This document shows, one piece after another, positions 416 to 26,292 of a stretch of DNA of 64,000 nucleotides (its first letter is position 1; every line of letters begins with the position of its first letter). The position numbers and the translations under genes were made by a program. Origin of the DNA: an uncultured Cytophagia bacterium (GTDB taxonomy: Bacteria > Zhuqueibacterota > Zhuqueibacteria > Residuimicrobiales > Residuimicrobiaceae); NCBI GenBank assembly GCA_964387285.1, contig CAYLWO010000023.1:948-64947 (forward strand). The letters are read 5' to 3'. The notes below the pieces were generated by a model, which worked only from the letters and a program-made list of their open reading frames with translations, had not been told where the DNA came from and made no database searches.

Positions 416-512
416 AAACGTCCTCTATCAGGATTTTTCTACAAAAAAAATCGTCCTGGCTGCAGCAACCAGGACGACGAGATTCCTTCGGAGAGAGTGT
501 GCGAAAAAAAGA

Positions 513-917
513 CTAACTCGGTTTTTCACCTTTTTCGAGTTTATCGGCAATAGCAGCCAGAGCGGTGCGCACGGTTTTGCTCTTGTCAATTTGGGCCTGT
601 TCACGAATCGCCGCTACAACCCGGGTATCGCCGATTTTCCACAAAGCATTGGCAGCCACGATGCGTATGGAACTGACATCATCGGTTTTCATCATCGTGG
701 TCAACACATCCACCGCTTTTTTGCAGCACTGCACGCCTAATTTTTCCGCTGCCTTGGCTCGTTCCATCGGTTTATCGCTGTTCAAGGAGACCAACATCTC
801 TTTCTGTTCCTTGGTCAATTCTGTGGTCGGGGCCACATAGGTATCGCGCGCCCAGGCGCCGACACACAGCACGACAACCAACAGGGCGATGACACTGATC
901 ATTCGATTGCTTTTCAT
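513..917 (-). CDS. Small exported HEAT-repeat (PBS-lyase-like) protein
   Basis: It has an N-terminal signal peptide (MKSNRMISVIALLVVVLCVGAWA) followed by helical repeats of the 'D..VR..AA.ALG.IG' type. A GGAGG ribosome-binding site precedes the ATG. Confidence 0.55.
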   Translation of the reverse strand: MKSNRMISVIALLVVVLCVGAWARDTYVAPTTELTKEQKEMLVSLNSDKPMERAKAAEKLGVQCCKKAVDVLTTMMKTDDVSSIRIVAANALWKIGDTRVVAAIREQAQIDKSKTVRTALAAIADKLEKGEKPS

Positions 918-980
918 GGTACACCTCCATTTAATAATATAGGATAATGGTTTGAATTCCTGATTTCACTGTATACATTG

Positions 981-996
981 GCAATTCGCATGCCAG
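981..996 (-). promoter_or_regulatory. Sigma-54 (-24/-12) promoter candidate for the HEAT-repeat gene
   Basis: The minus strand reads GCTGGCATGCGAATTGCC, i.e. TGGCAT-N5-TTGC with exact GG-N10-GC spacing. It lies about 64 nt upstream of the ATG at 917. Confidence 0.5.
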
Positions 997-1107
997 CAAA
1001 ATTGATTTAGTAAAAAAAACACTTTTGCAACAAGTTGTATAAATTAAACGTTACCATTGGTGCCAATCATGTAGGTTCATGCAGGTTTTTCTACTGCATG
1101 GCCATTT

Positions 1108-1145
1108 TGGTGCGTTTCGTACCACTCGTGGTTCAAAACGTACCA
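1108..1145. promoter_or_regulatory. Two inverted 17-bp sites (TGGTGCGTTTCGTACCA and TGGTTCAAAACGTACCA), candidate enhancer (UAS) for the sigma-54 activator
   Basis: The sites are 21 bp apart centre to centre and sit about 115-150 bp upstream of the sigma-54 promoter. Their consensus is TGGTAC-N5-GTACCA with 6-bp palindromic arms. They lie between the activator gene and its likely target. Confidence 0.4.
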
Positions 1146-1637
1146 ACACTTTGAAAAAAAATTTTTTCACCGCGTGATTTTTGCAAAAAGAAATAAATTC
1201 TTCCTGCATAATTCGGCATTCGCATCGTCCAATCTGGGTGTGTATAAAAGAAGAAATCCGGCGGAACGATAAAATGTATCAGCAATGTAAATATACTATC
1301 ACACAAAAGTATAAAACGCAAAACATCTGCCTGATCATCGACTATTCGGTCAGAACACGGAATTCGGAGACGGACGTTGAAAAAAAGAATCCCAAAATGT
1401 ACCAGATGATGAAAAAAAGAATCGCTTTTAATAATCTTTTTGTAGAAGGGGATTGCTTCACGCCAGCGCGGATATTCCTCTTTGGCGGCTGCTTTGCCTT
1501 CATTTGCAATGACACGGTCTTAACATGATCGGGGTAATCATGGCATCCATGCCCTTTTCCGAATAACCCGGAACCAGATGTCGGACGCCTCAAGAGACTC
1601 TTGCAGGTTTTTGAGTTTTAAATCAGGATAGAGAAGC

Positions 1638-3119
<1,482 letters not shown>

Positions 3120-3205
3120 CGCCTTATTATACAACAAAATAGAGAAAAAAGTTTCACTCTGAAATCGGCGAGGAGGGCGTTCCGTTCACCTGATCAATAG
3201 ATTTT

Positions 3206-4333
3206 TCATGCCAAAGCAGCCAGGCGTTCAACCCCTTTAGCCAGGATCTGATCCTCTACGGCAAAAGAGAGGCGAAAGTGGCTATTGTGTTGTGAAAAAT
3301 CCTTACCTGGAACGATCAACACCCCGGCCTGACGTGCGCGCTCAAAAAAGGCCCGGCCATCCTGTCCAGGCGCTCGCGGGAATAAATAAAAACCGCCGTC
3401 CGGCTTGACAATATCAAAACATCCTTTCAGGCGGTCATAAACCATATCCCGTTTTTTCTCATAGGCTTTGCGAAACGGCGCAAAATCAATATCAAAGGCT
3501 TTCAGAGCCATTTGTTGCGCCACCGCATTCAGACTGGCATGGGTGAATTGTTGAATGGTGATCATTTTATCAATCACATCCGCCGGCCCTGACGTGTAGC
3601 CGAGCCGCCAACCGGTCATGGCCGCGCTTTTGGAAAAGCTGTTGACAATAATGGCATTTTTGGTCATTCTTCCCAGGCTGATCCACTCATCGGTAAACAG
3701 AAAGGGCTCGTACACCTCATCGGAAATGATGTAAAACCGGCGGCGCTCAGCCAAAGCGACGATTTTTTCCAGCTCTGCTTTTTTATACACCGCTCCGGTC
3801 GGATTATTCGGACTGTTGAGAATGATGGCCTTGGTGCGATCGGTAATCAGTTGCTCAATCCGTTCCGCTTTGATTTGAAAATCCGGATACGTGTCCACAC
3901 CCACCGGCTCGGCGCCGGCCAGAAAACAGATATTGCGATAAGCGACAAAGTAGGGATCCGGAACGAGTATTTGATCGCCGCTGTCCGCCAAAGCCAGGAT
4001 CGCCATCAGCAAACCGCCGGTGGCGCCGGCCGTGACCAGGAAATCGCCGTATTGAATGCCGCGCTGATCCAGATTCTGGCCGATTAAGCGGCGCAGCTCC
4101 GGAATGCCCCTGGTGGGTGTATACCGGTTATGGCCGCTGCGAATAGCGTCGCAGCCCGCTTCCATCAATTCTTCGGATAGATCGAAATCCGGTTCACCTA
4201 TGGACAGATTGATGTACTCCGGATGCTGAGTGGCGATTTCAAATACTTTGCGAATGCCGGACGGTTCTATGCGGCTGACGCGCAGGGCCGGTGATGCTAA
4301 AATCGACGACACAAAAAGTCCTTTCCCTTTCAA
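3206..4333 (-). CDS. Class I/II PLP-dependent aminotransferase (aspartate aminotransferase family)
   Basis: It shows the NLSIGEPDF, NSPNNPTG and SFSKSAAMTGWRLGY motifs, the last carrying the PLP-lysine. Its start overlaps the upstream TonB-like gene by 4 nt. Confidence 0.85.
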   Translation of the reverse strand: MKGKGLFVSSILASPALRVSRIEPSGIRKVFEIATQHPEYINLSIGEPDFDLSEELMEAGCDAIRSGHNRYTPTRGIPELRRLIGQNLDQRGIQYGDFLVTAGATGGLLMAILALADSGDQILVPDPYFVAYRNICFLAGAEPVGVDTYPDFQIKAERIEQLITDRTKAIILNSPNNPTGAVYKKAELEKIVALAERRRFYIISDEVYEPFLFTDEWISLGRMTKNAIIVNSFSKSAAMTGWRLGYTSGPADVIDKMITIQQFTHASLNAVAQQMALKAFDIDFAPFRKAYEKKRDMVYDRLKGCFDIVKPDGGFYLFPRAPGQDGRAFFERARQAGVLIVPGKDFSQHNSHFRLSFAVEDQILAKGVERLAALA

Positions 4334-5340
4334 TTTGATCTGGACAGCGGCCTGTTATCATAATAAAAAGTCCAAACCATTTCCAACATCTCTTCCGGAA
4401 AATTTTCCGGCAAGGGCTTGAACGGATTGGATGCTCTAACCGAGTTGAGACTGGTCTGCACCAACGACGCATGCCCGCGATATCCCAACGTTTCCAATCC
4501 TTCGACCGTGCCGTTGCGCTGCAGGCGAAAACGCAGGCGGACCTCTGCGCTGATGGCGCCCATGACGTAAAATGCCGGCGGCGGATACAGATGTTCGCGC
4601 AAACGGCGACGCATATACTCGATATAGGGCGCCCACTCCCAGGCATAGGTGCTGAGCGACACATCGCCGAATTCACCGGCCGAGCTATTGCGATTATCGT
4701 ACTGACCATCCTGCGAAAAGTTGCGGTTACCGCCGCGGCCGCCACGCAAGAGATCGCGACTAAAAGGTTCATACGCCTGCGAGGCCGGTTCAAAGCTGTC
4801 GGTCGTCTCGCCGCTGGATTTTTTACGCAATTTTTCCCATGGAATCATGCCCTCGCCTTCATAGGATTTCGCTTCTCGACCGCCGGCCTCTGCCAGCTGT
4901 TGCTCGCCATTCTCTCCGGCCGGCGCACCGGGCGGCGTCGGCAAAGAGGGCGCCATGGACTGACCGGGCGGCAAACCATCACCGCCTTGAAAAACAATTC
5001 GCGGACTGTTGCCTTCGCTGTAGGGCAATCCCTGAGGTAAATCATTCCGAGTGTAACGATCGGCTGCCTGTGCGCTTTTATCGGAAACATAAAGAGTGGG
5101 TTGATCGTCTTTTTTCTCTTTGACGACCTCTGGAGTCTCGATCAACTCTATAGGAATGTAGCGAAAGCGTGGGAAATGCATTTGTATGGAATCAGGATAA
5201 GCCGGTTGTACAGGCAAGGTGTATTTTTCAGGCGCCAAATTCGGCAACAGCAGCAGCGTCAACAAGAAGTGAAAAAGACCGGATAGCAATAAGCCGATGA
5301 GGACAAAACGATCGTTATTTACTTGATCTCGATAGTACAC
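4330..5340 (-). CDS. TonB-family energy transducer-like protein
   Basis: It has an N-terminal transmembrane anchor (FVLIGLLLSGLFHFLLTLLLL), a Pro-rich spacer and a C-terminal segment fitting the TonB C-domain pattern (YPP.A...G..AEV.LRF.L.RNGTV). Confidence 0.5.
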   Translation of the reverse strand: MYYRDQVNNDRFVLIGLLLSGLFHFLLTLLLLPNLAPEKYTLPVQPAYPDSIQMHFPRFRYIPIELIETPEVVKEKKDDQPTLYVSDKSAQAADRYTRNDLPQGLPYSEGNSPRIVFQGGDGLPPGQSMAPSLPTPPGAPAGENGEQQLAEAGGREAKSYEGEGMIPWEKLRKKSSGETTDSFEPASQAYEPFSRDLLRGGRGGNRNFSQDGQYDNRNSSAGEFGDVSLSTYAWEWAPYIEYMRRRLREHLYPPPAFYVMGAISAEVRLRFRLQRNGTVEGLETLGYRGHASLVQTSLNSVRASNPFKPLPENFPEEMLEMVWTFYYDNRPLSRSN

Positions 5341-5343
5341 AGC

Positions 5344-5676
5344 CTATTGCCAATCTGCCAATTCCGTTTCTTCATGTATCCAGTCCAGATACTCGCGGTT
5401 GCCCTCATCAATCGAGAAGGCGATGATTTCCGGAACCTGGTAAGAGTGCTCGGACTGGATCCATTCGCTCAACTCTTTAAAATACTTTCTGCGGGTCTTC
5501 ATGATGACCGTCACTTCATTGGCAGAGGTGATCTGGTTCTTCCACCAGTAAAAAGATTTCACGCCGGCCATGATATTGGCACAGGCGATCAGCCTGGCTT
5601 TGAGCACCTTTTGCACGATTCTTTCCGCTTCCTCCTGCGTAGCGCAGGAGGTCAAGACCAGGATATAGCTTTCCAT
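5344..5676 (-). CDS. cutA: Divalent-cation tolerance protein CutA
   Basis: It is 110 aa with typical CutA1 motifs (LIACANI..G..S.Y.WK...EVPEIIA..I..GN..YLDWI). Confidence 0.85.
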   Translation of the reverse strand: MESYILVLTSCATQEEAERIVQKVLKARLIACANIMAGVKSFYWWKNQITSANEVTVIMKTRRKYFKELSEWIQSEHSYQVPEIIAFSIDEGNREYLDWIHEETELADWQ

Positions 5677-6698: not shown

Positions 6699-6769
6699 CT
6701 TGAACTTGTATTCATCTTTTTAAATGCAAACGCAGATAGAGTTGATTTATTGAATGCTCATCGACGCGT

Positions 6770-6872
6770 GTGGGAAAAAGACCGGCAACGTCCGGAGCGC
6801 CGACGTCCCACCCGTAATTTCAACGCGCCCGCAAAAGCGACCGGGACGGTCGCGTTCCCGACAAATCTGTGA
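6770..6872. repeat. Copy 1 of a ~100-nt conserved GC-rich hairpin-containing element
   Basis: It is about 83% identical to the copy at 7071-7176. It contains the palindrome GCGACC-GGGAC-GGTCGC. On the minus strand it ends with CCGGACGTTGCCGG followed by TCTTTTT, which is terminator-like. Confidence 0.6.
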
Positions 6873-7070
6873 GTTGAAATCCACGGATACCTACAGTAAG
6901 GTTGTCCCAGATTATCTACGATTGTTTGGTCGCACAGCGACCAGTGCCGGTAGCCGGGCGTTTTAGCGCCCGGGAAACAAGGTACACCACCGCGTCGTGT
7001 AGCGACGTATGACCGACCTGTACACAGCCATCACATTGTCGCAAACCATATCATACATTTTCATGACACA

Positions 7071-7176
7071 AGTGGAAAAAAACCGGCCACAACCGGAACG
7101 CCGACATCCCGGCCGCAATGTCAATGCGCCTGCAAAAGCGCCGGGACGGTCGCGTTCCGGACGGGAAAAATCTATC
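7071..7176. repeat. Copy 2 of the ~100-nt conserved element
   Basis: Its sequence similarity to copy 1 can be seen directly. It lies 301 bp downstream of copy 1. On the minus strand it ends with CCGGTTGTGGCCGG followed by TTTTTTT. Confidence 0.6.
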
Positions 7177-7546
7177 ACGGCAATAGCATCATCTTATCCG
7201 ATTGCACCAGAGTTGCCTCCGTTGCGCAAGCTGCTTTAGGACATTCGTCCCGCTAGTTGCAGTGAGTTTCCACAGATCCCGGCACTCCCGGTATTGCGGG
7301 ATGAACATCCCGCGTCCGCTTGCGCGCAGCGGACATCTGCTGAGCGATCGCCTCTGTCCCTATCTTTAATACCGTGAGCCCTTTATCAACGCCACTTGCT
7401 GTACAAGGGGATTGCTTCACTCCACCTCAGAGAGTGCTCTTTGTCAAAGACACCTCCTCCAGTTCGCAATGACATCGTTTTAGTGTCGTTGGGGTATTCA
7501 CCGGATCATGAAACCTCACAGATCGCCAAGACCTGGAGGTTTGTAT

Positions 7547-8620
7547 TCACAGTCGACAAGGATCAGCCAAGGCATGGATAGAATGATTAAAGCACATGCG
7601 CCCTTTACCGCACAACTCTAAAATCGGATCCGGATTCAACAGGGAACCATAATACTCCATGGCCGCAGCAGGGCACCCGCCGAGGCAGTGCTCGCGAAAG
7701 GGATTTGTACACGTCAGACAGATCACTGGCACTGAATTCCACAAGGGATGCTTTCTTCCTTTTTCAACCAAACAAGAAAAAGAGTCCTTGCGCAGATCGC
7801 CTAAAATAATGGACGAGTGGTTGCAAGGCCGTAGTTTGCCGTCCACACTGATGGTGTAATAGGAATGGCCGTTTCCACGCGGACACCAACCAAAGCTGAG
7901 ATTGCTGAATTTTTCCAGATGCAAAAGACATGCGGGAATGGGCACCGCACAGGATGCAGAAACGTGATAATGTCCTACCACTTGATCAAACTGGCTCAGG
8001 CTTTCATCCAATTCCTGTACAGACGGCAAAATAGCCGGACCCGTTCTCTTGCCAACATTCACGCGATTATAAAGCACGCCGGCCGCGCCCAAAGCCAGAG
8101 CCAGTTCCACCGTACGATATACATCCCGGTAATTGGTCTTGGTGGCGATAAAAACATGGGTAAAACGGGCTTGATGCGTATGCAGTTCGGCGATGTTGCG
8201 CAGGATGGCCTGAAAAGAATTCCTGCCGGCAATCTGATTATGAATTTTTTCCTGAAAAGAAAATAAGGTGATCTCGTACGAGAGTCCGTTTGGCAGTCGC
8301 TTCTGCCTGGCGCGATCCAACAACGCAGCGTTGGTCACGATAATGGGTTCCAAACCCAAATCCACCACATCGCCGACAATTTCAGCGAAATTGGCGCGCA
8401 GCAGGGGCTCGCCGCCGGTTATGCCTACGTATTTTAAAGGAATCTCCTTTTTAATTTGCGCAAGCAGCCTTTTAATTTCTTCCCGGTTAAGCATCGGCCC
8501 CTGCAAGGGCACTGTTCCCCGGCCGTTATCCCGCCAATAATTATAACAATGAGTGCAATGATGATTGCACTGATAAGCAATTTCCAGACTTACCATCTGC
8601 AGCGGATCAGCGACGGTCAT
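7547..8620 (-). CDS. Radical SAM enzyme with C-terminal SPASM/twitch-type auxiliary Fe-S cluster domain (peptide/protein-modifying maturase class)
   Basis: It has the N-terminal CNHHCTHC (CxxxCxxC) motif and a GGEPLL SAM-binding motif. The Cys-rich C-terminus includes CLTCTNPFREHCLGGC (Cx2Cx7Cx3C) plus further Cys pairs. Its ATG directly abuts the stop of the upstream ORF. Confidence 0.8.
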   Translation of the reverse strand: MTVADPLQMVSLEIAYQCNHHCTHCYNYWRDNGRGTVPLQGPMLNREEIKRLLAQIKKEIPLKYVGITGGEPLLRANFAEIVGDVVDLGLEPIIVTNAALLDRARQKRLPNGLSYEITLFSFQEKIHNQIAGRNSFQAILRNIAELHTHQARFTHVFIATKTNYRDVYRTVELALALGAAGVLYNRVNVGKRTGPAILPSVQELDESLSQFDQVVGHYHVSASCAVPIPACLLHLEKFSNLSFGWCPRGNGHSYYTISVDGKLRPCNHSSIILGDLRKDSFSCLVEKGRKHPLWNSVPVICLTCTNPFREHCLGGCPAAAMEYYGSLLNPDPILELCGKGRMCFNHSIHALADPCRL

Positions 8621-9043
8621 CTACTTGATGGCCTCCCGCAATGTTTTAGCCAGAGAGGGAGAAATGATTTTTTCTTTAACAAAGCCGTCGATGAGCGCGT
8701 TCTGCATAACGGGGTTGAGCTTGCGCCAGAGCATGTCGGCCGGATAGTAGCAGAGAATGTAATAGCATTTGAACTGCGCCACCGGCGGCAGTACAATCAC
8801 CGCAATGTTGCTGCCGTCGATAATAATGCCGCCGCTGACCGGACCAATCTGATTCTGAAAATATTTCTCCAAAGGTACGGACGTCAACGCCAGTCTGGGA
8901 TCGAGCACAAAATGCTTACCTTCCGGCGTCTCTACATCAAGGCTTGCACCGGATTTTTTAATTTGCGCCGGCTGCATGGTTTTGCCGTACTTTTTCGTAA
9001 GCGCCTCAATGGTAAAGGGCACATTTTGTTCCTTCTGATTCAT
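8621..9043 (-). CDS. Hypothetical 140-aa protein, translationally coupled to the radical SAM gene
   Basis: Its TAG stop is immediately followed by the ATG of the radical SAM gene. I recognise no similarity. The C-terminal half is hydrophobic and Tyr/Cys-rich (KCYYILCYYP). Confidence 0.45.
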   Translation of the reverse strand: MNQKEQNVPFTIEALTKKYGKTMQPAQIKKSGASLDVETPEGKHFVLDPRLALTSVPLEKYFQNQIGPVSGGIIIDGSNIAVIVLPPVAQFKCYYILCYYPADMLWRKLNPVMQNALIDGFVKEKIISPSLAKTLREAIK

Positions 9044-9133: not shown

Positions 9134-9150
9134 TTTAATACCGTGCAACT
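9134..9150 (-). promoter_or_regulatory. Sigma-54 promoter candidate for the 140-aa/radical SAM operon
   Basis: The minus strand reads TTTTGGCATTTGAGTTGCACGG, i.e. TGGCAT-N5-TTGCA, an exact match to the consensus spacing. It lies about 92 nt upstream of the ATG at 9043. Confidence 0.55.
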
Positions 9151-9267
9151 CAAATGCCAAAATACCGAGTCAGAATCAGGAGGGAATGATGCGGCCAACA
9201 GGATGAAATTACTGCAATTAATTTGCAAAACTAGGTTAAAGCTGCACCAGAAAAATCGGACTATTTA

Positions 9268-9301
9268 TGGCAATTTTACCATGAACATGGCAACTTTACC
9301 C
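9268..9301. promoter_or_regulatory. Two direct 14-bp repeats (TGGCAATTTTACCA / TGGCAACTTTACCC), possible upstream activator sites
   Basis: The repeats are 20 bp apart and sit about 120-150 bp upstream of the sigma-54 promoter at 9134-9150. The first is a TGG-N8-CCA quasi-palindrome. Confidence 0.3.
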
Positions 9302-9338
9302 GAATAATCCAAATCAGAAAAACGGTCGTTAAGAACTT

Positions 9339-23572: not shown

Positions 23573-26032
23573 TTATTCGCACCTCAACGCCTCCACCGGG
23601 TTGGTCCTGGCGGCGCGTATGGTTTGCCAGCCTATGGTTCCTATTGCTATTATCAGAGCCAGTCCGCCGGCTAAAGCAAACATCCACCAGCTGGTATCGA
23701 TTCTATAAGCAAAATTTTGCAGCCATCTGTTCATAACGTACCAGGCAACCGGCCAGGCGATGAGATTGGCCGCGATCACCCACCTGATGAATTCCTTGGA
23801 CAGTTTGATCGTTAACTGGACCATCGAAGCGCCCAACACTCGGCGTATGCCGGTCTCTTTGGTTCTTTGTTCTATGGTAAATGACGCCAGACCCAGCAAT
23901 CCCAAACAGGCAATGGCTATCGCCAGGGCGGAAAAGGCGGTAAACAGTTTGCCGATTCGTTTTTCCGTATTATAGAGTTTGTCATATTCGACATCGAAGA
24001 AAAAGTATTCAAACGGCTTGTTGGGAATGAATTTATTCCAGATCTTTTCTATAAAGGCGACGGTGGCCATGACATTTTGCGGATGTATACGAACGGCGAT
24101 ATAGGTTCGCGATTGTCTTTGCAGAACCAGTACCATGGGGGCAATGTTATGATACAGAGATTCATAGTGAAAATCCTGCACAACGCCGATGATAGGTACA
24201 AAGAAATTTGCATCGTTGGGAAATCCGATGCGTTTTCCGACATAGGGTCTTTCATAGCCGAGCAGTTTGCCGGCAGCCTCGTTTATGACCACCGCAACAG
24301 TATCCGAAGCAATCTGCGGAGAAAAAAAGCGCCCTTCCAGCAATTCGAATTTCATGGTTTCGGCAAAATTGAAATCGCCATTGAGAATATTAAACTGCAG
24401 CCGCTCTCCATGCGAGCCGCCATCGGCAACGCCGACAAAATCCTCAAAATCCTTTCCCGGCAGGTTGCTTATGCCGGCTATGGAAATTATATTGGGATTT
24501 TGCAGCAAATCCGTTTTAAATACGTCAAAAACGGTTGCAGGCCCAATTGGCGCCTGCGGCGTGCCGTCAGCATTCTGTCCAACGGCCCAGCCGCGTTTAA
24601 TGACCAGTATGTTTTCCTTGTCGAATCCCAGGCGCTTGTTTTGTATATAACGCAATTGCTGATAAACAATAAAGGTACCGACCAGCAAAGCGATCGAAAT
24701 GGCAAATTGAAAAACAACGAGCGCGCTGCGCATATGGGAATTTCCTGACGTCCCCCGGGTACTGCTTTTTTTCAACACCTCGATGGGTTTAAAGGAGGCA
24801 AGATAAAAAGCCGGATAACTTCCCGCCAGGACGCCAACCACAAGAACGACGACCAGTAAAACGGGCGCAAAAAACCAATGAGAAAAATAAGCAAAGGTCA
24901 ATTGTTTTCCCGCCAGGTTGTTAAAGCAAGGCAACAAAAGCTTGACGCATATCAAAGAACCCATCAGTGCAACAGCGGCAAAGAGAACTGATTCAAGCAG
25001 GAACTGATACACCAATTGGGATTTAAAAGATCCGATCGCCTTGCGTACGCCAATTTCCCTGCTGCGGGTGCAGGATTTGGCAGTGGAAAGATTCATGAAA
25101 TTTATGCACGCAAGTAAAAGTATGAACAGGGCTACAAATGAAATGATATAAACATATTTTATATCACTGTTGGGCTCCAGTTCTCTGGAAATGTGCGAAT
25201 GCAGGTGAATGGATGTAAGCGGCTGCAAATAGAATTCGATTTTACCGCCGGATTGGTAGAATTGAGCCAGGGTCATCTTGGTCCTTCTTTCAATATGCGG
25301 CGCGACAAATTTTTCGATCAGAGAAGGAAATTTTGCTTCAAGCTGTCTGGGGGAACAATCCTTTTGCAGCACGATATAGGTATACATATAATGAGCCAGC
25401 CAGAATCCCGGGTATTTCCATTCCCAGGAAGATAACGGACAAAGCATGCCGTAATGAAAATGAGAATTTACCGGTGCATTTTCGATAATGCCGGATATGC
25501 GGTAAGGTGTGCCGTCCTCATAATTGACGATTTTACCAACAGCATCTGCGAGGTTGCTAAAGTATTTTTCGGCTGTTGCCCTGGTCATGACCACGGTATG
25601 ATGATCTTTAAGCGCGGTTTTCATATCCCCATAGAGCATGCGCACAGGGAAAACATCAAAAAAAGTTGAATCCACCCATAAGAATTGTGTTTCATTAAAG
25701 GTTTTGTCCTGATAACGAACCAGCATATTGGGTGTAGGGACGATGCGCGTCGCCTGGAGTACTTCCGGATATTCCCTTACCAGGGTTCCGGCCATTAATT
25801 CTGAGGTGACCGCCTCGTCCAGGTCTTGATTGCCAAACCTACTTTTAACAGCCACGCGGTAAATTTGCTCCGCTTTTTCATAATGGGTGTCATAACTCAA
25901 TTCGTCAAGGACAAACAACACGATTAACAGACAGCAGGTCATGCCGATAGTAAGCCCGACAATATTGATGACAGAATAGGTCTTTTGCTTTAACAAATTC
26001 CTGAAAGCGATTTTCAAATAGTTTTTATACAT
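23573..26032 (-). CDS. FtsX/MacB-like ABC transporter permease with two FtsX domains (no adjacent ATPase gene)
   Basis: Its N-terminus (MYKNYLKIAFRNLLKQK) is typical of this family. It has 4+4 transmembrane helices with large periplasmic domains. The start is placed at the ATG at 26032 preceded by AGGAG; the ORF track extends to 26080. Confidence 0.8.
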   Translation of the reverse strand: MYKNYLKIAFRNLLKQKTYSVINIVGLTIGMTCCLLIVLFVLDELSYDTHYEKAEQIYRVAVKSRFGNQDLDEAVTSELMAGTLVREYPEVLQATRIVPTPNMLVRYQDKTFNETQFLWVDSTFFDVFPVRMLYGDMKTALKDHHTVVMTRATAEKYFSNLADAVGKIVNYEDGTPYRISGIIENAPVNSHFHYGMLCPLSSWEWKYPGFWLAHYMYTYIVLQKDCSPRQLEAKFPSLIEKFVAPHIERRTKMTLAQFYQSGGKIEFYLQPLTSIHLHSHISRELEPNSDIKYVYIISFVALFILLLACINFMNLSTAKSCTRSREIGVRKAIGSFKSQLVYQFLLESVLFAAVALMGSLICVKLLLPCFNNLAGKQLTFAYFSHWFFAPVLLVVVLVVGVLAGSYPAFYLASFKPIEVLKKSSTRGTSGNSHMRSALVVFQFAISIALLVGTFIVYQQLRYIQNKRLGFDKENILVIKRGWAVGQNADGTPQAPIGPATVFDVFKTDLLQNPNIISIAGISNLPGKDFEDFVGVADGGSHGERLQFNILNGDFNFAETMKFELLEGRFFSPQIASDTVAVVINEAAGKLLGYERPYVGKRIGFPNDANFFVPIIGVVQDFHYESLYHNIAPMVLVLQRQSRTYIAVRIHPQNVMATVAFIEKIWNKFIPNKPFEYFFFDVEYDKLYNTEKRIGKLFTAFSALAIAIACLGLLGLASFTIEQRTKETGIRRVLGASMVQLTIKLSKEFIRWVIAANLIAWPVAWYVMNRWLQNFAYRIDTSWWMFALAGGLALIIAIGTIGWQTIRAARTNPVEALRCE

Positions 26033-26093: not shown

Positions 26094-26126
26094 AGACCTC
26101 ACAGGTTTTAAAAACCTGTGAGGTCT
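26094..26126. repeat. 33-nt perfect palindrome AGACCTCACAGGTTTT-A-AAAACCTGTGAGGTCT (copy 1)
   Basis: Its 16-nt arms are exact reverse complements. A second copy lies at 33074-33106. Confidence 0.8.
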
Positions 26127-26168
26127 AAATCGCAAAATAAAGCTGTAGTAATAATCACCTTCATTAAA

Positions 26169-26184
26169 GGCAAAAACCTTGCCA
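26169..26184 (-). promoter_or_regulatory. Sigma-54-like promoter candidate (TGGCAA-N5-TTGC) upstream of the FtsX permease
   Basis: The minus strand reads TTTTGGCAAGGTTTTTGCCTTT with GG-N10-GC spacing. It lies about 138 nt upstream of the ATG at 26032. The -24 element is a weaker variant (TGGCAA). Confidence 0.35.
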
Positions 26185-26275: not shown

Positions 26276-26292
26276 TGGTACGTTTTGTACCT
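26276..26292. promoter_or_regulatory. Third copy of the TGGTAC-N5-GTACCA 17-mer (TGGTACGTTTTGTACCT)
   Basis: It matches the site at 1108-1124 at 14 of 17 positions and the site at 1129-1145 (reverse) at 16 of 17. It lies about 95 bp upstream of the sigma-54-like element at 26169-26184. Confidence 0.35.

What the first reader, a model, noticed from the sequence alone, without database searches (positions are those of the whole stretch)
917..1640. Enhancer-binding-protein gene, paired inverted 17-mers (TGGTAC-N5-GTACCA) and a sigma-54 promoter arranged in front of a small exported HEAT-repeat protein
The GAF-domain sigma-54 activator (GAFTGA present) is followed on the same strand by a 720-bp intergenic region. 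In it the minus strand shows CTGGCATGCGAATTGCC (TGGCAT-N5-TTGC) 64 nt upstream of the HEAT-repeat gene ATG. About 115-150 bp further upstream, two 17-mers sit in opposite orientation, 21 bp apart: TGGTGCGTTTCGTACCA and TGGTTCAAAACGTACCA. Both derive from a TGGTAC-GTTTT-GTACCA palindrome-with-spacer. This is the classic geometry of a bEBP dimer-pair enhancer looping to a sigma-54 promoter, which gives a concrete, testable regulator-site-target prediction. The signal sensed by the GAF domain and the role of the secreted HEAT protein are unknown.
Basis: partly seen in the sequence, partly recalled or inferred. Interest (0 to 1): 0.6.

Follow-up and report, generated by a model that had tools for sequence, protein, structure and literature searches.

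The report
Conserved sigma-54 enhancer, promoter and target
A regulator gene, its two DNA docking sites and a sigma-54 promoter form a conserved on-switch for a small exported helical-repeat protein in an uncultured bacterium; the design is textbook, and only the signal and the target's job are unknown.

Summary
All parts lie on the minus strand. They are a sigma-54 activator gene (1638-3119), two 17-bp dyads (1129-1145 and 1108-1124, 21 bp start to start), a -24/-12 promoter (981-995), a ribosome-binding site, a 134-aa HEAT-like gene with a signal-peptide-like N-terminus (513-917) and a terminator (450-478). Nine related lineages (HEAT protein 54-91% identical) keep the same order. Eight of them keep 117-122 bp from the proximal dyad to -24, while the rest of the spacer has diverged. 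The working consensus is TGGTAC-N5-GNNCCA. A matrix built only from non-window sites ranks the two dyads and a third site (26276-26292) as the top three of about 128,000 window positions. The third site lies 100 bp upstream of a second sigma-54-like promoter, before an ADOP/MacB-type permease gene, which is a probable second target seen only in this window.

Corrections:
- The sensor domain is a very divergent GAF, below Pfam thresholds in this protein.
- Only about 230 of the 720 intergenic bp are functional. The other 490 bp are lineage-specific filler.
- Only the spacers, not the arms, are mirror-imaged.

This is a new member of a known kind, with modest interest.

The parts
1638..3119 (-). 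Sigma-54 activator (bEBP) gene. It has a divergent GAF-like N-terminal domain (about residues 1-170), an AAA+ sigma-54 interaction domain with GAFTGA, an AAA lid and a Fis-type HTH_8. The mechanical ORF extends to a TTG at 3137.
   Evidence: Pfam domains. Start inferred from orthologue alignment. GAF_2 hits in 3 of 6 orthologues (best E 1.1e-5). A remote relative, P0135, passes the Pfam GAF_2 cut-off. No NCBIfam equivalog cut-off is reached.
1146..1637 (.). Lineage-specific, AT-rich (40% GC) filler between the activator stop codon and the enhancer. It contains one copy (about 1440-1550) of a roughly 110-bp element that also occurs at about 7400-7510.
   Evidence: Absent from orthologous loci, where the distance from stop codon to enhancer is about 3-225 bp. 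No Rfam match and no terminator-like or notable promoter-like site. Repeat copy.
1129..1145 (-). Promoter-distal enhancer dyad. Reads TGGTACGTTTTGAACCA in gene orientation.
   Evidence: Scores 18.8 bits with a matrix trained on non-window sites. Conserved in position in 9 lineages.
1108..1124 (-). Promoter-proximal enhancer dyad. Reads TGGTACGAAACGCACCA in gene orientation. Its centre is 121 bp from the TGG of the -24 element.
   Evidence: Scores 19.3 bits. The spacing is 117-122 bp in 8 of 9 lineages.
1049..1065 (-). Possible weak third site, TGGCACCAATGGTAACG (15.4 bits). It is conserved only in the closest relative, L017, so its status is uncertain.
996..1048 (.). A/T-tract-rich segment between enhancer and promoter, including T8 at about 1011-1018. 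It is an inferred bending or IHF-type region. Comparable A/T tracts occur in every lineage, and L020 has a full WATCAANNNNTTR match.
   Evidence: Read directly from the sequences. That it bends DNA is an inference.
981..995 (-). Sigma-54 -24/-12 promoter, TGGCATGCGAATTGC.
   Evidence: TGG(C/T)A(C/T)-N5-TTGC is present at the equivalent place in all 9 lineages.
921..928 (-). Ribosome-binding site, GGAGGTGT. It is invariant in 7 aligned lineages.
513..917 (-). 134-aa protein with a Sec-type signal peptide (cleavage predicted at AWA|RD), followed by three HEAT-like (PBS-HEAT/alphaRep-type) repeats. An invariant Cys64-Cys65 pair sits where repeat 1 normally has 'IGD'.
   Evidence: Pfam HEAT_2. Profile against PDB alphaRep proteins, E 2e-42. 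AF2 model pLDDT 80 with six repeat helices. Foldseek matches. Homologue sequences and their invariant columns. The signal peptide was judged by inspection only.
450..478 (-). Intrinsic terminator (13-bp stem followed by T8) ending a monocistronic HEAT transcript.
26276..26292 (-). Single 17-bp dyad, TGGTACGTTTTGTACCT on the + strand. Its centre is 100 bp upstream of a second sigma-54-like promoter. Probable second enhancer.
   Evidence: Scores 17.0 bits, third best in the window. Composite test.
26170..26184 (-). Sigma-54-like -24/-12 element, TGGCAAGGTTTTTGC, 138 nt upstream of the permease ATG.
23573..26032 (-). 819-aa duplicated MacB_PCD/FtsX permease (ADOP-like). Probable second target of the activator.
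   Evidence: Pfam. NCBIfam ADOP subfamily, below cut-off. Identical protein P0009. Homologues at 60-76% identity in other contexts lack the site.

Best explanation
This is a one-component sigma-54 switch.

The activator gene is the last in a conserved cutA / TonB_C-like / (aminotransferase) / activator gene string. Dimers of the activator bind, through the C-terminal Fis-type helix-turn-helix, to two 17-bp dyads of consensus TGGTAC-N5-GNNCCA. The dyads lie two helical turns apart, on one face of the DNA. When the divergent GAF-like N-terminal domain receives its still unknown signal, the AAA+ domains assemble into the active ring. The intervening A/T-tract DNA, about 120 bp long, loops. The GAFTGA loops contact sigma-54 holoenzyme sitting in a closed complex at TGGCAT-N5-TTGC (981-995), and ATP hydrolysis opens the promoter.

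The transcript is monocistronic. It runs from about 50 nt of leader through the ribosome-binding site and the HEAT gene to the terminator at 450-478. The product is an exported protein of three HEAT-like repeats with an invariant Cys-Cys pair.

A single copy of the same dyad, 100 bp upstream of a second sigma-54-like promoter, probably places an ADOP/MacB-type permease gene under the same activator.

Shown here: the elements, their statistical excess and their conservation. Inferred: who binds the dyads, the looping, sigma-54 dependence in vivo, the signal, and export of the product.
For: - Domain set of a bEBP with GAFTGA.
- It is the only bEBP in the 64-kb window.
- The dyads occur 3 times against 0.03 expected.
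- A matrix trained only on orthologous loci ranks the three window sites as the top 3 of about 128,000 positions.
- The composite of dyad plus promoter occurs 3 times against 0 in 300 simulations.
- Nine lineages keep the order activator, dyad pair, sigma-54 promoter, HEAT gene. The invariant columns are confined to the dyad arms, -24, -12 and the ribosome-binding site.
- The distance from dyad to -24 stays at 117-122 bp in 8 lineages. Over the same lineages the distance from stop codon to dyad varies from about 30 to 490 bp, and from -12 to the ATG from 46 to 71 nt.
- In a metagenome scan for the paired pattern, the only hit with a sigma-54 promoter downstream is another orthologous locus, L072.
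- A terminator lies after the HEAT gene.
- Enhancers 80-150 bp upstream, looping and GAF-mediated control are the established bEBP mechanism (review PMC4987338).
Against: - There are no binding, transcript-start or rpoN data, and rpoN is not in the window.
- The assignment of the dyads to the adjacent activator rests on conserved adjacency only.
- The permease site is a single dyad found in this window only. Permease homologues at 60-76% identity, in other genomic contexts, have neither dyad nor promoter.
- In L077 the proximal dyad is degenerate, the dyad spacing is 20 bp and the distance to -24 is 86 bp, so the geometry is not universal.
- The GAF assignment for the window protein is sub-threshold.
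Confidence: 0.8

Rival explanations
1. The dyads are a genuine protein-binding enhancer or operator, but they are bound by a different regulator encoded elsewhere. This could be another bEBP or a classical dimeric repressor or activator. In that case the adjacent activator acts at other sites.
For: No binding data exist. The window shows a second, different dyad pair upstream of another sigma-54-like promoter (9267-9302 and 9145-9159), so the genome has several bEBP/enhancer systems. The permease site lies 23 kb from the activator gene.
Against: The activator gene and the dyad pair are adjacent in every lineage whose contig reaches far enough. The 6-N5-6 dyad of 17 bp, with an A/T-rich centre, is the format used by Fis-type HTH bEBPs such as NtrC (own knowledge). 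The position 117-142 bp upstream of -24 fits an enhancer, not an operator.
Confidence: 0.1
2. The 17-mers act at the RNA level, as hairpins that terminate or stabilise the activator transcript. In several relatives they start only about 30 bp (3 bp in L077) after the activator stop codon.
For: Each 17-mer can form a 6-bp stem with a 5-nt loop. In L001, L002 and L004 they lie about 30 bp after the stop codon, and in L077 3 bp after it.
Against: In the window they are 490 bp from the stop codon. No T-run follows them, and the terminator scan did not call them. The upstream arm is invariant while the downstream arm changes without compensation (GAACCA, GCACCA, GCGCCA, GTTCCG). That is the pattern of a protein site, not of a helix. 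The same dyad recurs upstream of an unrelated gene.
Confidence: 0.03
3. The juxtaposition of palindromes and a -24/-12 look-alike is due to chance.
For: The promoter pattern alone is not enriched in the window (2 observed, 0.62 expected).
Against: and conservation in nine lineages.
Confidence: 0.01

Closest known systems
NtrC and the glnAp2 enhancer (enteric bacteria)
   Same: A pair of 17-bp 6-N5-6 dyads with an A/T-rich centre, bound by a Fis-type HTH. They lie on one DNA face about 110-140 bp upstream of a TGGCAC-N5-TTGC promoter, and activation is by looping and ATP hydrolysis (own knowledge; general scheme in PMC4987338).
   Different: The arm sequence differs (TGGTAC/GNNCCA against TGCACC/GGTGCA). 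The dyad spacing is 21 bp rather than about 32 bp. The sensor is a GAF-like domain rather than a phosphorylated receiver. The NCBIfam ntrC model scores 324, below its cut-off of 558, and matches the central domain only.
GAF-domain bEBPs NorR (norVW), FhlA (formate regulon) and NifA
   Same: One-component architecture of GAF, AAA+ and HTH. In these proteins the GAF domain holds the ATPase in check until a ligand is sensed. They use multiple enhancer sites next to the regulated gene (PMC4987338).
   Different: Profile comparison of the N-terminal domain with the E. coli NorR GAF gives no match. The NCBIfam NorR, FhlA and NifA models match only the central and HTH parts, below their cut-offs. The FhlA enhancer CATTTCGTACGAAATG shares a CGTAC/GAAA string, but its dyad axis is placed differently, so this is a resemblance only. 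The targets are unrelated.
ZraR-ZraP and PspF-PspA (sigma-54-driven envelope stress proteins)
   Same: A bEBP drives a dedicated sigma-54 promoter for one small helical protein. That protein works in the periplasm (ZraP) or at the membrane (PspA) (PMC4987338).
   Different: The HEAT-like protein has no sequence or fold relation to ZraP, CpxP, Spy or PspA. There is no sensor kinase and no divergent promoter arrangement. A stress role here is speculation.
PBS-HEAT / alphaRep-type repeat proteins (e.g. MTH187, CpcE/F lyase subunits)
   Same: The repeat sequence and fold of the target protein match.
   Different: This protein has only three repeats, a signal peptide and an invariant Cys-Cys in the loop of repeat 1. 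It has no known partner.

Membership tests
Bacterial enhancer-binding protein (sigma-54 activator) | AAA+ sigma-54 interaction domain (PF00158) | tested here: met
   E 5.6e-69 over residues 201-367, covering the full profile.
Bacterial enhancer-binding protein (sigma-54 activator) | GAFTGA sigma-54 contact loop | tested here: met
   ...FGHEKGAFTGAVG... is in the translation.
Bacterial enhancer-binding protein (sigma-54 activator) | C-terminal Fis-type HTH DNA-binding domain | tested here: met
   HTH_8, E 3.5e-12, residues 456-496.
Bacterial enhancer-binding protein (sigma-54 activator) | ATP-dependent activation of sigma-54 holoenzyme | not testable with these tools
   Needs in vitro transcription or a reporter assay.
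GAF-domain sensor | Significant match to a GAF profile or fold | tested here: inconclusive
   The window protein has no Pfam hit even at E 10. GAF_2 hits 3 of 6 orthologues (best E 1.1e-5) and GAF hits 2 of 6. Relative P0135 (27% identical, E 5e-6 in a library of 1.84 billion proteins) passes the GAF_2 cut-off, 30.7 against 28.6. The best PDB profile hit is a GAF sensor, 3o5y, at E 0.27. The single-sequence AF2 model is unusable, pLDDT 37.
Named bEBP equivalogs (NtrC, NifA, NorR, FhlA, ZraR, PspF, PrdR and others) | Score at or above the NCBIfam curated cut-off over the full length | tested here: not met
   The best is PrdR at 347 against a cut-off of 795. All matches cover only residues from about 185 to 492.
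Sigma-54 promoter | GG-N10-GC with TGGCAC-N5-TTGC context, in the correct orientation at a short distance from the gene start | tested here: met
   TGGCATGCGAATTGC at 981-995(-), 64 nt from the ATG. Conserved in 9 lineages.
Sigma-54 promoter | Transcription start about 12 nt downstream of the GC, and dependence on rpoN | not testable with these tools
   No transcript data are available, and rpoN is not in the window.
bEBP enhancer (UAS) | Dyad-symmetric sites, usually two or more, 80-150 bp upstream of the promoter | tested here: met
   Two dyads centred 121 and 142 bp from -24. The 80-150 bp range is taken from PMC4987338.
bEBP enhancer (UAS) | Conserved across orthologous loci and enriched over chance | tested here: met
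bEBP enhancer (UAS) | Specific binding by the cognate activator | not testable with these tools
   Needs EMSA or a footprint.
HEAT-like (PBS-HEAT) repeat protein | Repeat profile match and a helical-hairpin repeat fold | tested here: met
   HEAT_2 at 40.8 bits against a cut-off of 27.7. alphaRep proteins at E 2e-42. AF2 pLDDT 80 with six paired helices. Foldseek rmsd of about 1.5 Å to alphaRep structures.
Exported (Sec) protein | N-terminal signal peptide with a cleavage site | tested here: inconclusive
   Judged by inspection only: MKSNR, a hydrophobic run, then AWA|RD. The pattern is conserved in homologues. No signal-peptide predictor was available.

The most novel reading that the evidence does not exclude
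The module may be a lineage-restricted envelope (metal, redox or membrane-damage) response of KSB1-like bacteria. An orphan, highly divergent GAF-type sensor has only about five recognisable relatives among 1.84 billion representative proteins. In this reading it switches on a periplasmic three-repeat HEAT protein, whose invariant vicinal Cys-Cys is the working part, together with an ADOP/MacB-type permease. The switch would be genetically tied to cutA and a TonB_C-like gene. That would make it a functional analogue of ZraSR-ZraP or Psp, built from unrelated parts.
Probability: 0.15. Interest if true: 0.5.

Novelty: new member of a known kind. Interest (0 to 1): 0.3.

Why it matters
The finding gives a complete and unusually well-footprinted regulator-site-promoter-target assignment in an uncultured lineage, including a usable binding-site matrix. 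With that matrix the regulon can be read from any complete genome of the group. The orphan sensor domain and the Cys-Cys HEAT protein can also be tested in a heterologous host.

It does not change how sigma-54 activation is understood. The architecture is the classical one.

Tried and rejected
- Word-index homology search with the N-terminal 205 residues returned nothing. The GAF question therefore rests on profile evidence only.
- A NorR-like iron-site idea was dropped. Profile comparison of the sensor alignment with the E. coli NorR GAF gave no match.
- The metagenome-wide scan for the paired-dyad pattern returned 47 loci. Of these, 46 are 21-bp-periodic repeats or unrelated sequence without a sigma-54 promoter, and one is another orthologue, L072. 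It therefore gave no new targets.
- The permease target could not be confirmed by conservation. Homologues P0010, P0012, P0014 and P0016 (60-76% identical) sit in other contexts and lack both dyad and promoter. The genomes that carry the activator could not be scanned in full.
- A high-scoring matrix hit after the HEAT gene in L003 is that gene's terminator hairpin, not an enhancer.
- Rfam found nothing at gathering thresholds in the window, and only one chance-level hit (manA-II, 20 bits against 100) in 880-1700.
- The 83-aa ORF 1342-1593(-) in the filler DNA was rejected as a gene. It has a TTG start, no ribosome-binding site, no conservation, and it overlaps a repeat copy.
- Literature searches for the motif, and for a link between bEBPs and HEAT proteins, found nothing relevant.

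Full report
**Observation.** All of the following lie on the minus strand:
- An activator ORF at 1638-3137. Orthologue alignment puts the likely start at the ATG at 3119.
- A 720-bp gap (918-1637).
- A 134-aa ORF at 513-917.

The activator has the Sigma54_activat, AAA_lid_14 and HTH_8 domains and a GAFTGA loop. The small protein matches HEAT_2. CTGGCATGCGAATTGCC reads on the minus strand at 979-995, 64 nt from the ATG. The two 17-mers are at 1108-1124 and 1129-1145, 21 bp start to start.

**Chance.**
- TGGTAC-N5-GTACCA with at most one mismatch occurs three times in 64 kb, against 0.03 expected.
- The promoter pattern alone is not enriched (2 observed, 0.62 expected).
Its centre lies 100 bp upstream of TGGCAAGGTTTTTGC (26170-26184, minus strand). 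That element precedes a duplicated MacB_PCD/FtsX permease gene, ADOP-like, at 23573-26032.
- In a composite test, a matrix site of at least 14 bits lying 80-160 bp upstream of TGGCA-N6-TTGC on the correct strand occurs three times in the window and never in 300 simulated windows.

**Conservation.**
- A genome-collection scan with the activator found four full-length orthologues at 64-68% identity, L001-L004. All have the HEAT gene directly downstream.
- Homologues of the HEAT protein are few, only eight clusters. Their contigs gave further lineages: L017-19 (91%), L020-23 (80%), L079 (66%) and L077 (54%, a candidate division KSB1 assembly).
- A metagenome pattern scan added L072.
- In every case the order is activator, 17-mer, about 4 bp, 17-mer, TGG(C/T)A(C/T)-N5-TTGC, ribosome-binding site, HEAT gene.
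- In the alignment of seven lineages the invariant columns fall in the dyad arms, the -24 and -12 elements, and GGAGGTGT plus the ATG. The rest is diverged.
- The distance from the proximal dyad centre to -24 is 117-122 bp in eight lineages. The distance from stop codon to dyad ranges from about 30 to 490 bp, and from -12 to the ATG from 46 to 71 nt. L077 differs: the distance to -24 is 86 bp, the dyad spacing is 20 bp, and the left arm of the proximal dyad is degenerate.
- A matrix built only from non-window sites ranks the two dyads and the permease dyad as the three best of about 128,000 window positions.

**Anatomy of the site.** The consensus is TGGTAC-N5-GNNCCA. Among 18 sites in the nine lineages:
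- The upstream arm is exactly TGGTAC in 15.
- The downstream arm is exactly GTACCA in only 4.
- The G at position 12 and the CC at positions 15-16 are invariant.

The arms therefore behave as direct repeats. The 5-bp spacers are A/T-rich and mirror each other: T-rich in the distal site and A-rich in the proximal site, with the reverse in L003. The uncompensated changes in the downstream arm argue against an RNA hairpin and for a protein-binding site. A/T tracts lie between enhancer and promoter in all lineages, and L020 has a full IHF-type consensus. Bending there is inferred, not shown.

- The 720-bp gap is inflated. Positions 1146-1637 are 40% GC, against 50% for the window, and have no counterpart in any orthologous locus. 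They contain a copy of a roughly 110-bp element also found at about 7400-7510. Nothing functional was detected there.
- The HEAT gene ends in a strong terminator at 450-478, so the unit is monocistronic.
- The activator is the last gene of a conserved string, cutA / TonB_C-like / (aminotransferase) / activator, with a convergent Sir2 gene after the HEAT gene.

**The proteins.**
- The N-terminal 170 residues or so of the activator have no Pfam hit in the window protein. GAF_2 hits three of six orthologues, with a best E of 1.1e-5.
- An exhaustive search of 1.84 billion representative proteins finds only eight hits at E up to 1e-3. Five of them are N-terminal parts of sigma-54 activators; P0132, P0136 and P0137 are not. 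One of the five, P0135, passes the Pfam GAF_2 cut-off.
- The best PDB profile hit is a GAF sensor at E 0.27. The domain is therefore best described as a very divergent, narrowly distributed GAF.
- It does not align with the NorR GAF, and the protein reaches no NCBIfam equivalog cut-off.
- The HEAT protein is a confident three-repeat PBS-HEAT/alphaRep-type fold behind a Sec-type signal sequence, which was judged by inspection only.
- It has an invariant Cys-Cys where the repeat consensus has 'IGD'.

**Mechanism.** The most likely reading is the classical one (confidence 0.8). Activator dimers sit on the two dyads. A signal received through the GAF-like domain triggers assembly of the AAA+ ring. 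The DNA loops over about 120 bp, and sigma-54 holoenzyme at 981-995 is remodelled by ATP hydrolysis. The general scheme is as reviewed in PMC4987338. The permease gene is a probable second target, but this is supported only within this window. Homologues at 60-76% identity from other contexts lack the site, and the genomes of true relatives could not be scanned.

The rivals are a different regulator binding the dyads (0.1), an RNA-level hairpin (0.03) and chance (0.01).

**Verdict.** This is a new member of a known kind. It is useful as a clean regulon seed in an uncultured FCB/KSB1-like lineage; T9SS markers in the window fit that placement. It is not surprising to a specialist. Interest 0.3.

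Noticed in passing
window 9145-9302 (minus-strand genes 8621-9043 and 7547-8620): There is a second, different enhancer-like arrangement. The sigma-54-like promoter TGGCATTTGAGTTGC (9145-9159, minus strand) lies about 100 nt before a 140-aa ORF with no family match, which is followed by a radical-SAM/SPASM-like gene. Two 16-bp dyads lie 115-135 bp upstream, 20 bp apart: ATGGCAATTTTACCAT (9267-9282) and ATGGCAACTTTACCCG (9287-9302). Its activator is not in the window.
   Followed up: partly
window 26096-26130: A perfect long inverted repeat, AGACCTCACAGGTTTT / AAAACCTGTGAGGTCT, lies in the leader of the permease gene, between the sigma-54-like promoter and the ATG. No T-run follows it. A related string (AACCTCACAG...GCCAAGACCT) occurs near 7520-7545, so it may be a dispersed hairpin repeat.
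   Followed up: no
window 6770-6860 and 7070-7160; also 7400-7510 and 1440-1550: The 850-bp gap at 6699-7546 holds two GC-rich direct repeats of about 95 bp. It also holds a roughly 110-bp element (AAGGGGATTGCTTCAC...TTCGCAATGACA...GGGGTA) that has a second copy inside the activator-HEAT intergenic filler.
   Followed up: partly
window 1049-1065: TGGCACCAATGGTAACG scores 15.4 bits with the dyad matrix. It lies between enhancer and promoter and is conserved in the closest relative only (L017: TGGCACCAACGTTAACA). Next to it, the direct repeat CCTRCATG x2 (about 1067-1095) is also shared with L017. Their function is unclear.
   Followed up: partly
window 513-917 (residues 64-65 of the protein): An invariant vicinal Cys-Cys occurs in all nine family members, at the loop where the HEAT-like repeat consensus has Ile-Gly-Asp. 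The family is very small: eight clusters among 5.8 billion protein clusters.
   Followed up: partly
window 3206-5676 and loci L001-L004, L017, L020, L072: The string cutA / TonB_C-like gene / activator / HEAT gene, with a convergent Sir2 gene, is syntenic in all long loci. The class I/II aminotransferase gene (3206-4333) is present only in the window, L017 and L020 lineages.
   Followed up: partly
L029, L024-L026: Close homologues of the ADOP-like permease in other organisms occur in tandem arrays of three to five paralogous permease genes. Some are interleaved with toxin-antitoxin-like genes (PIN, PhdYeFM) and AAA_14/DUF4143 genes.
   Followed up: no
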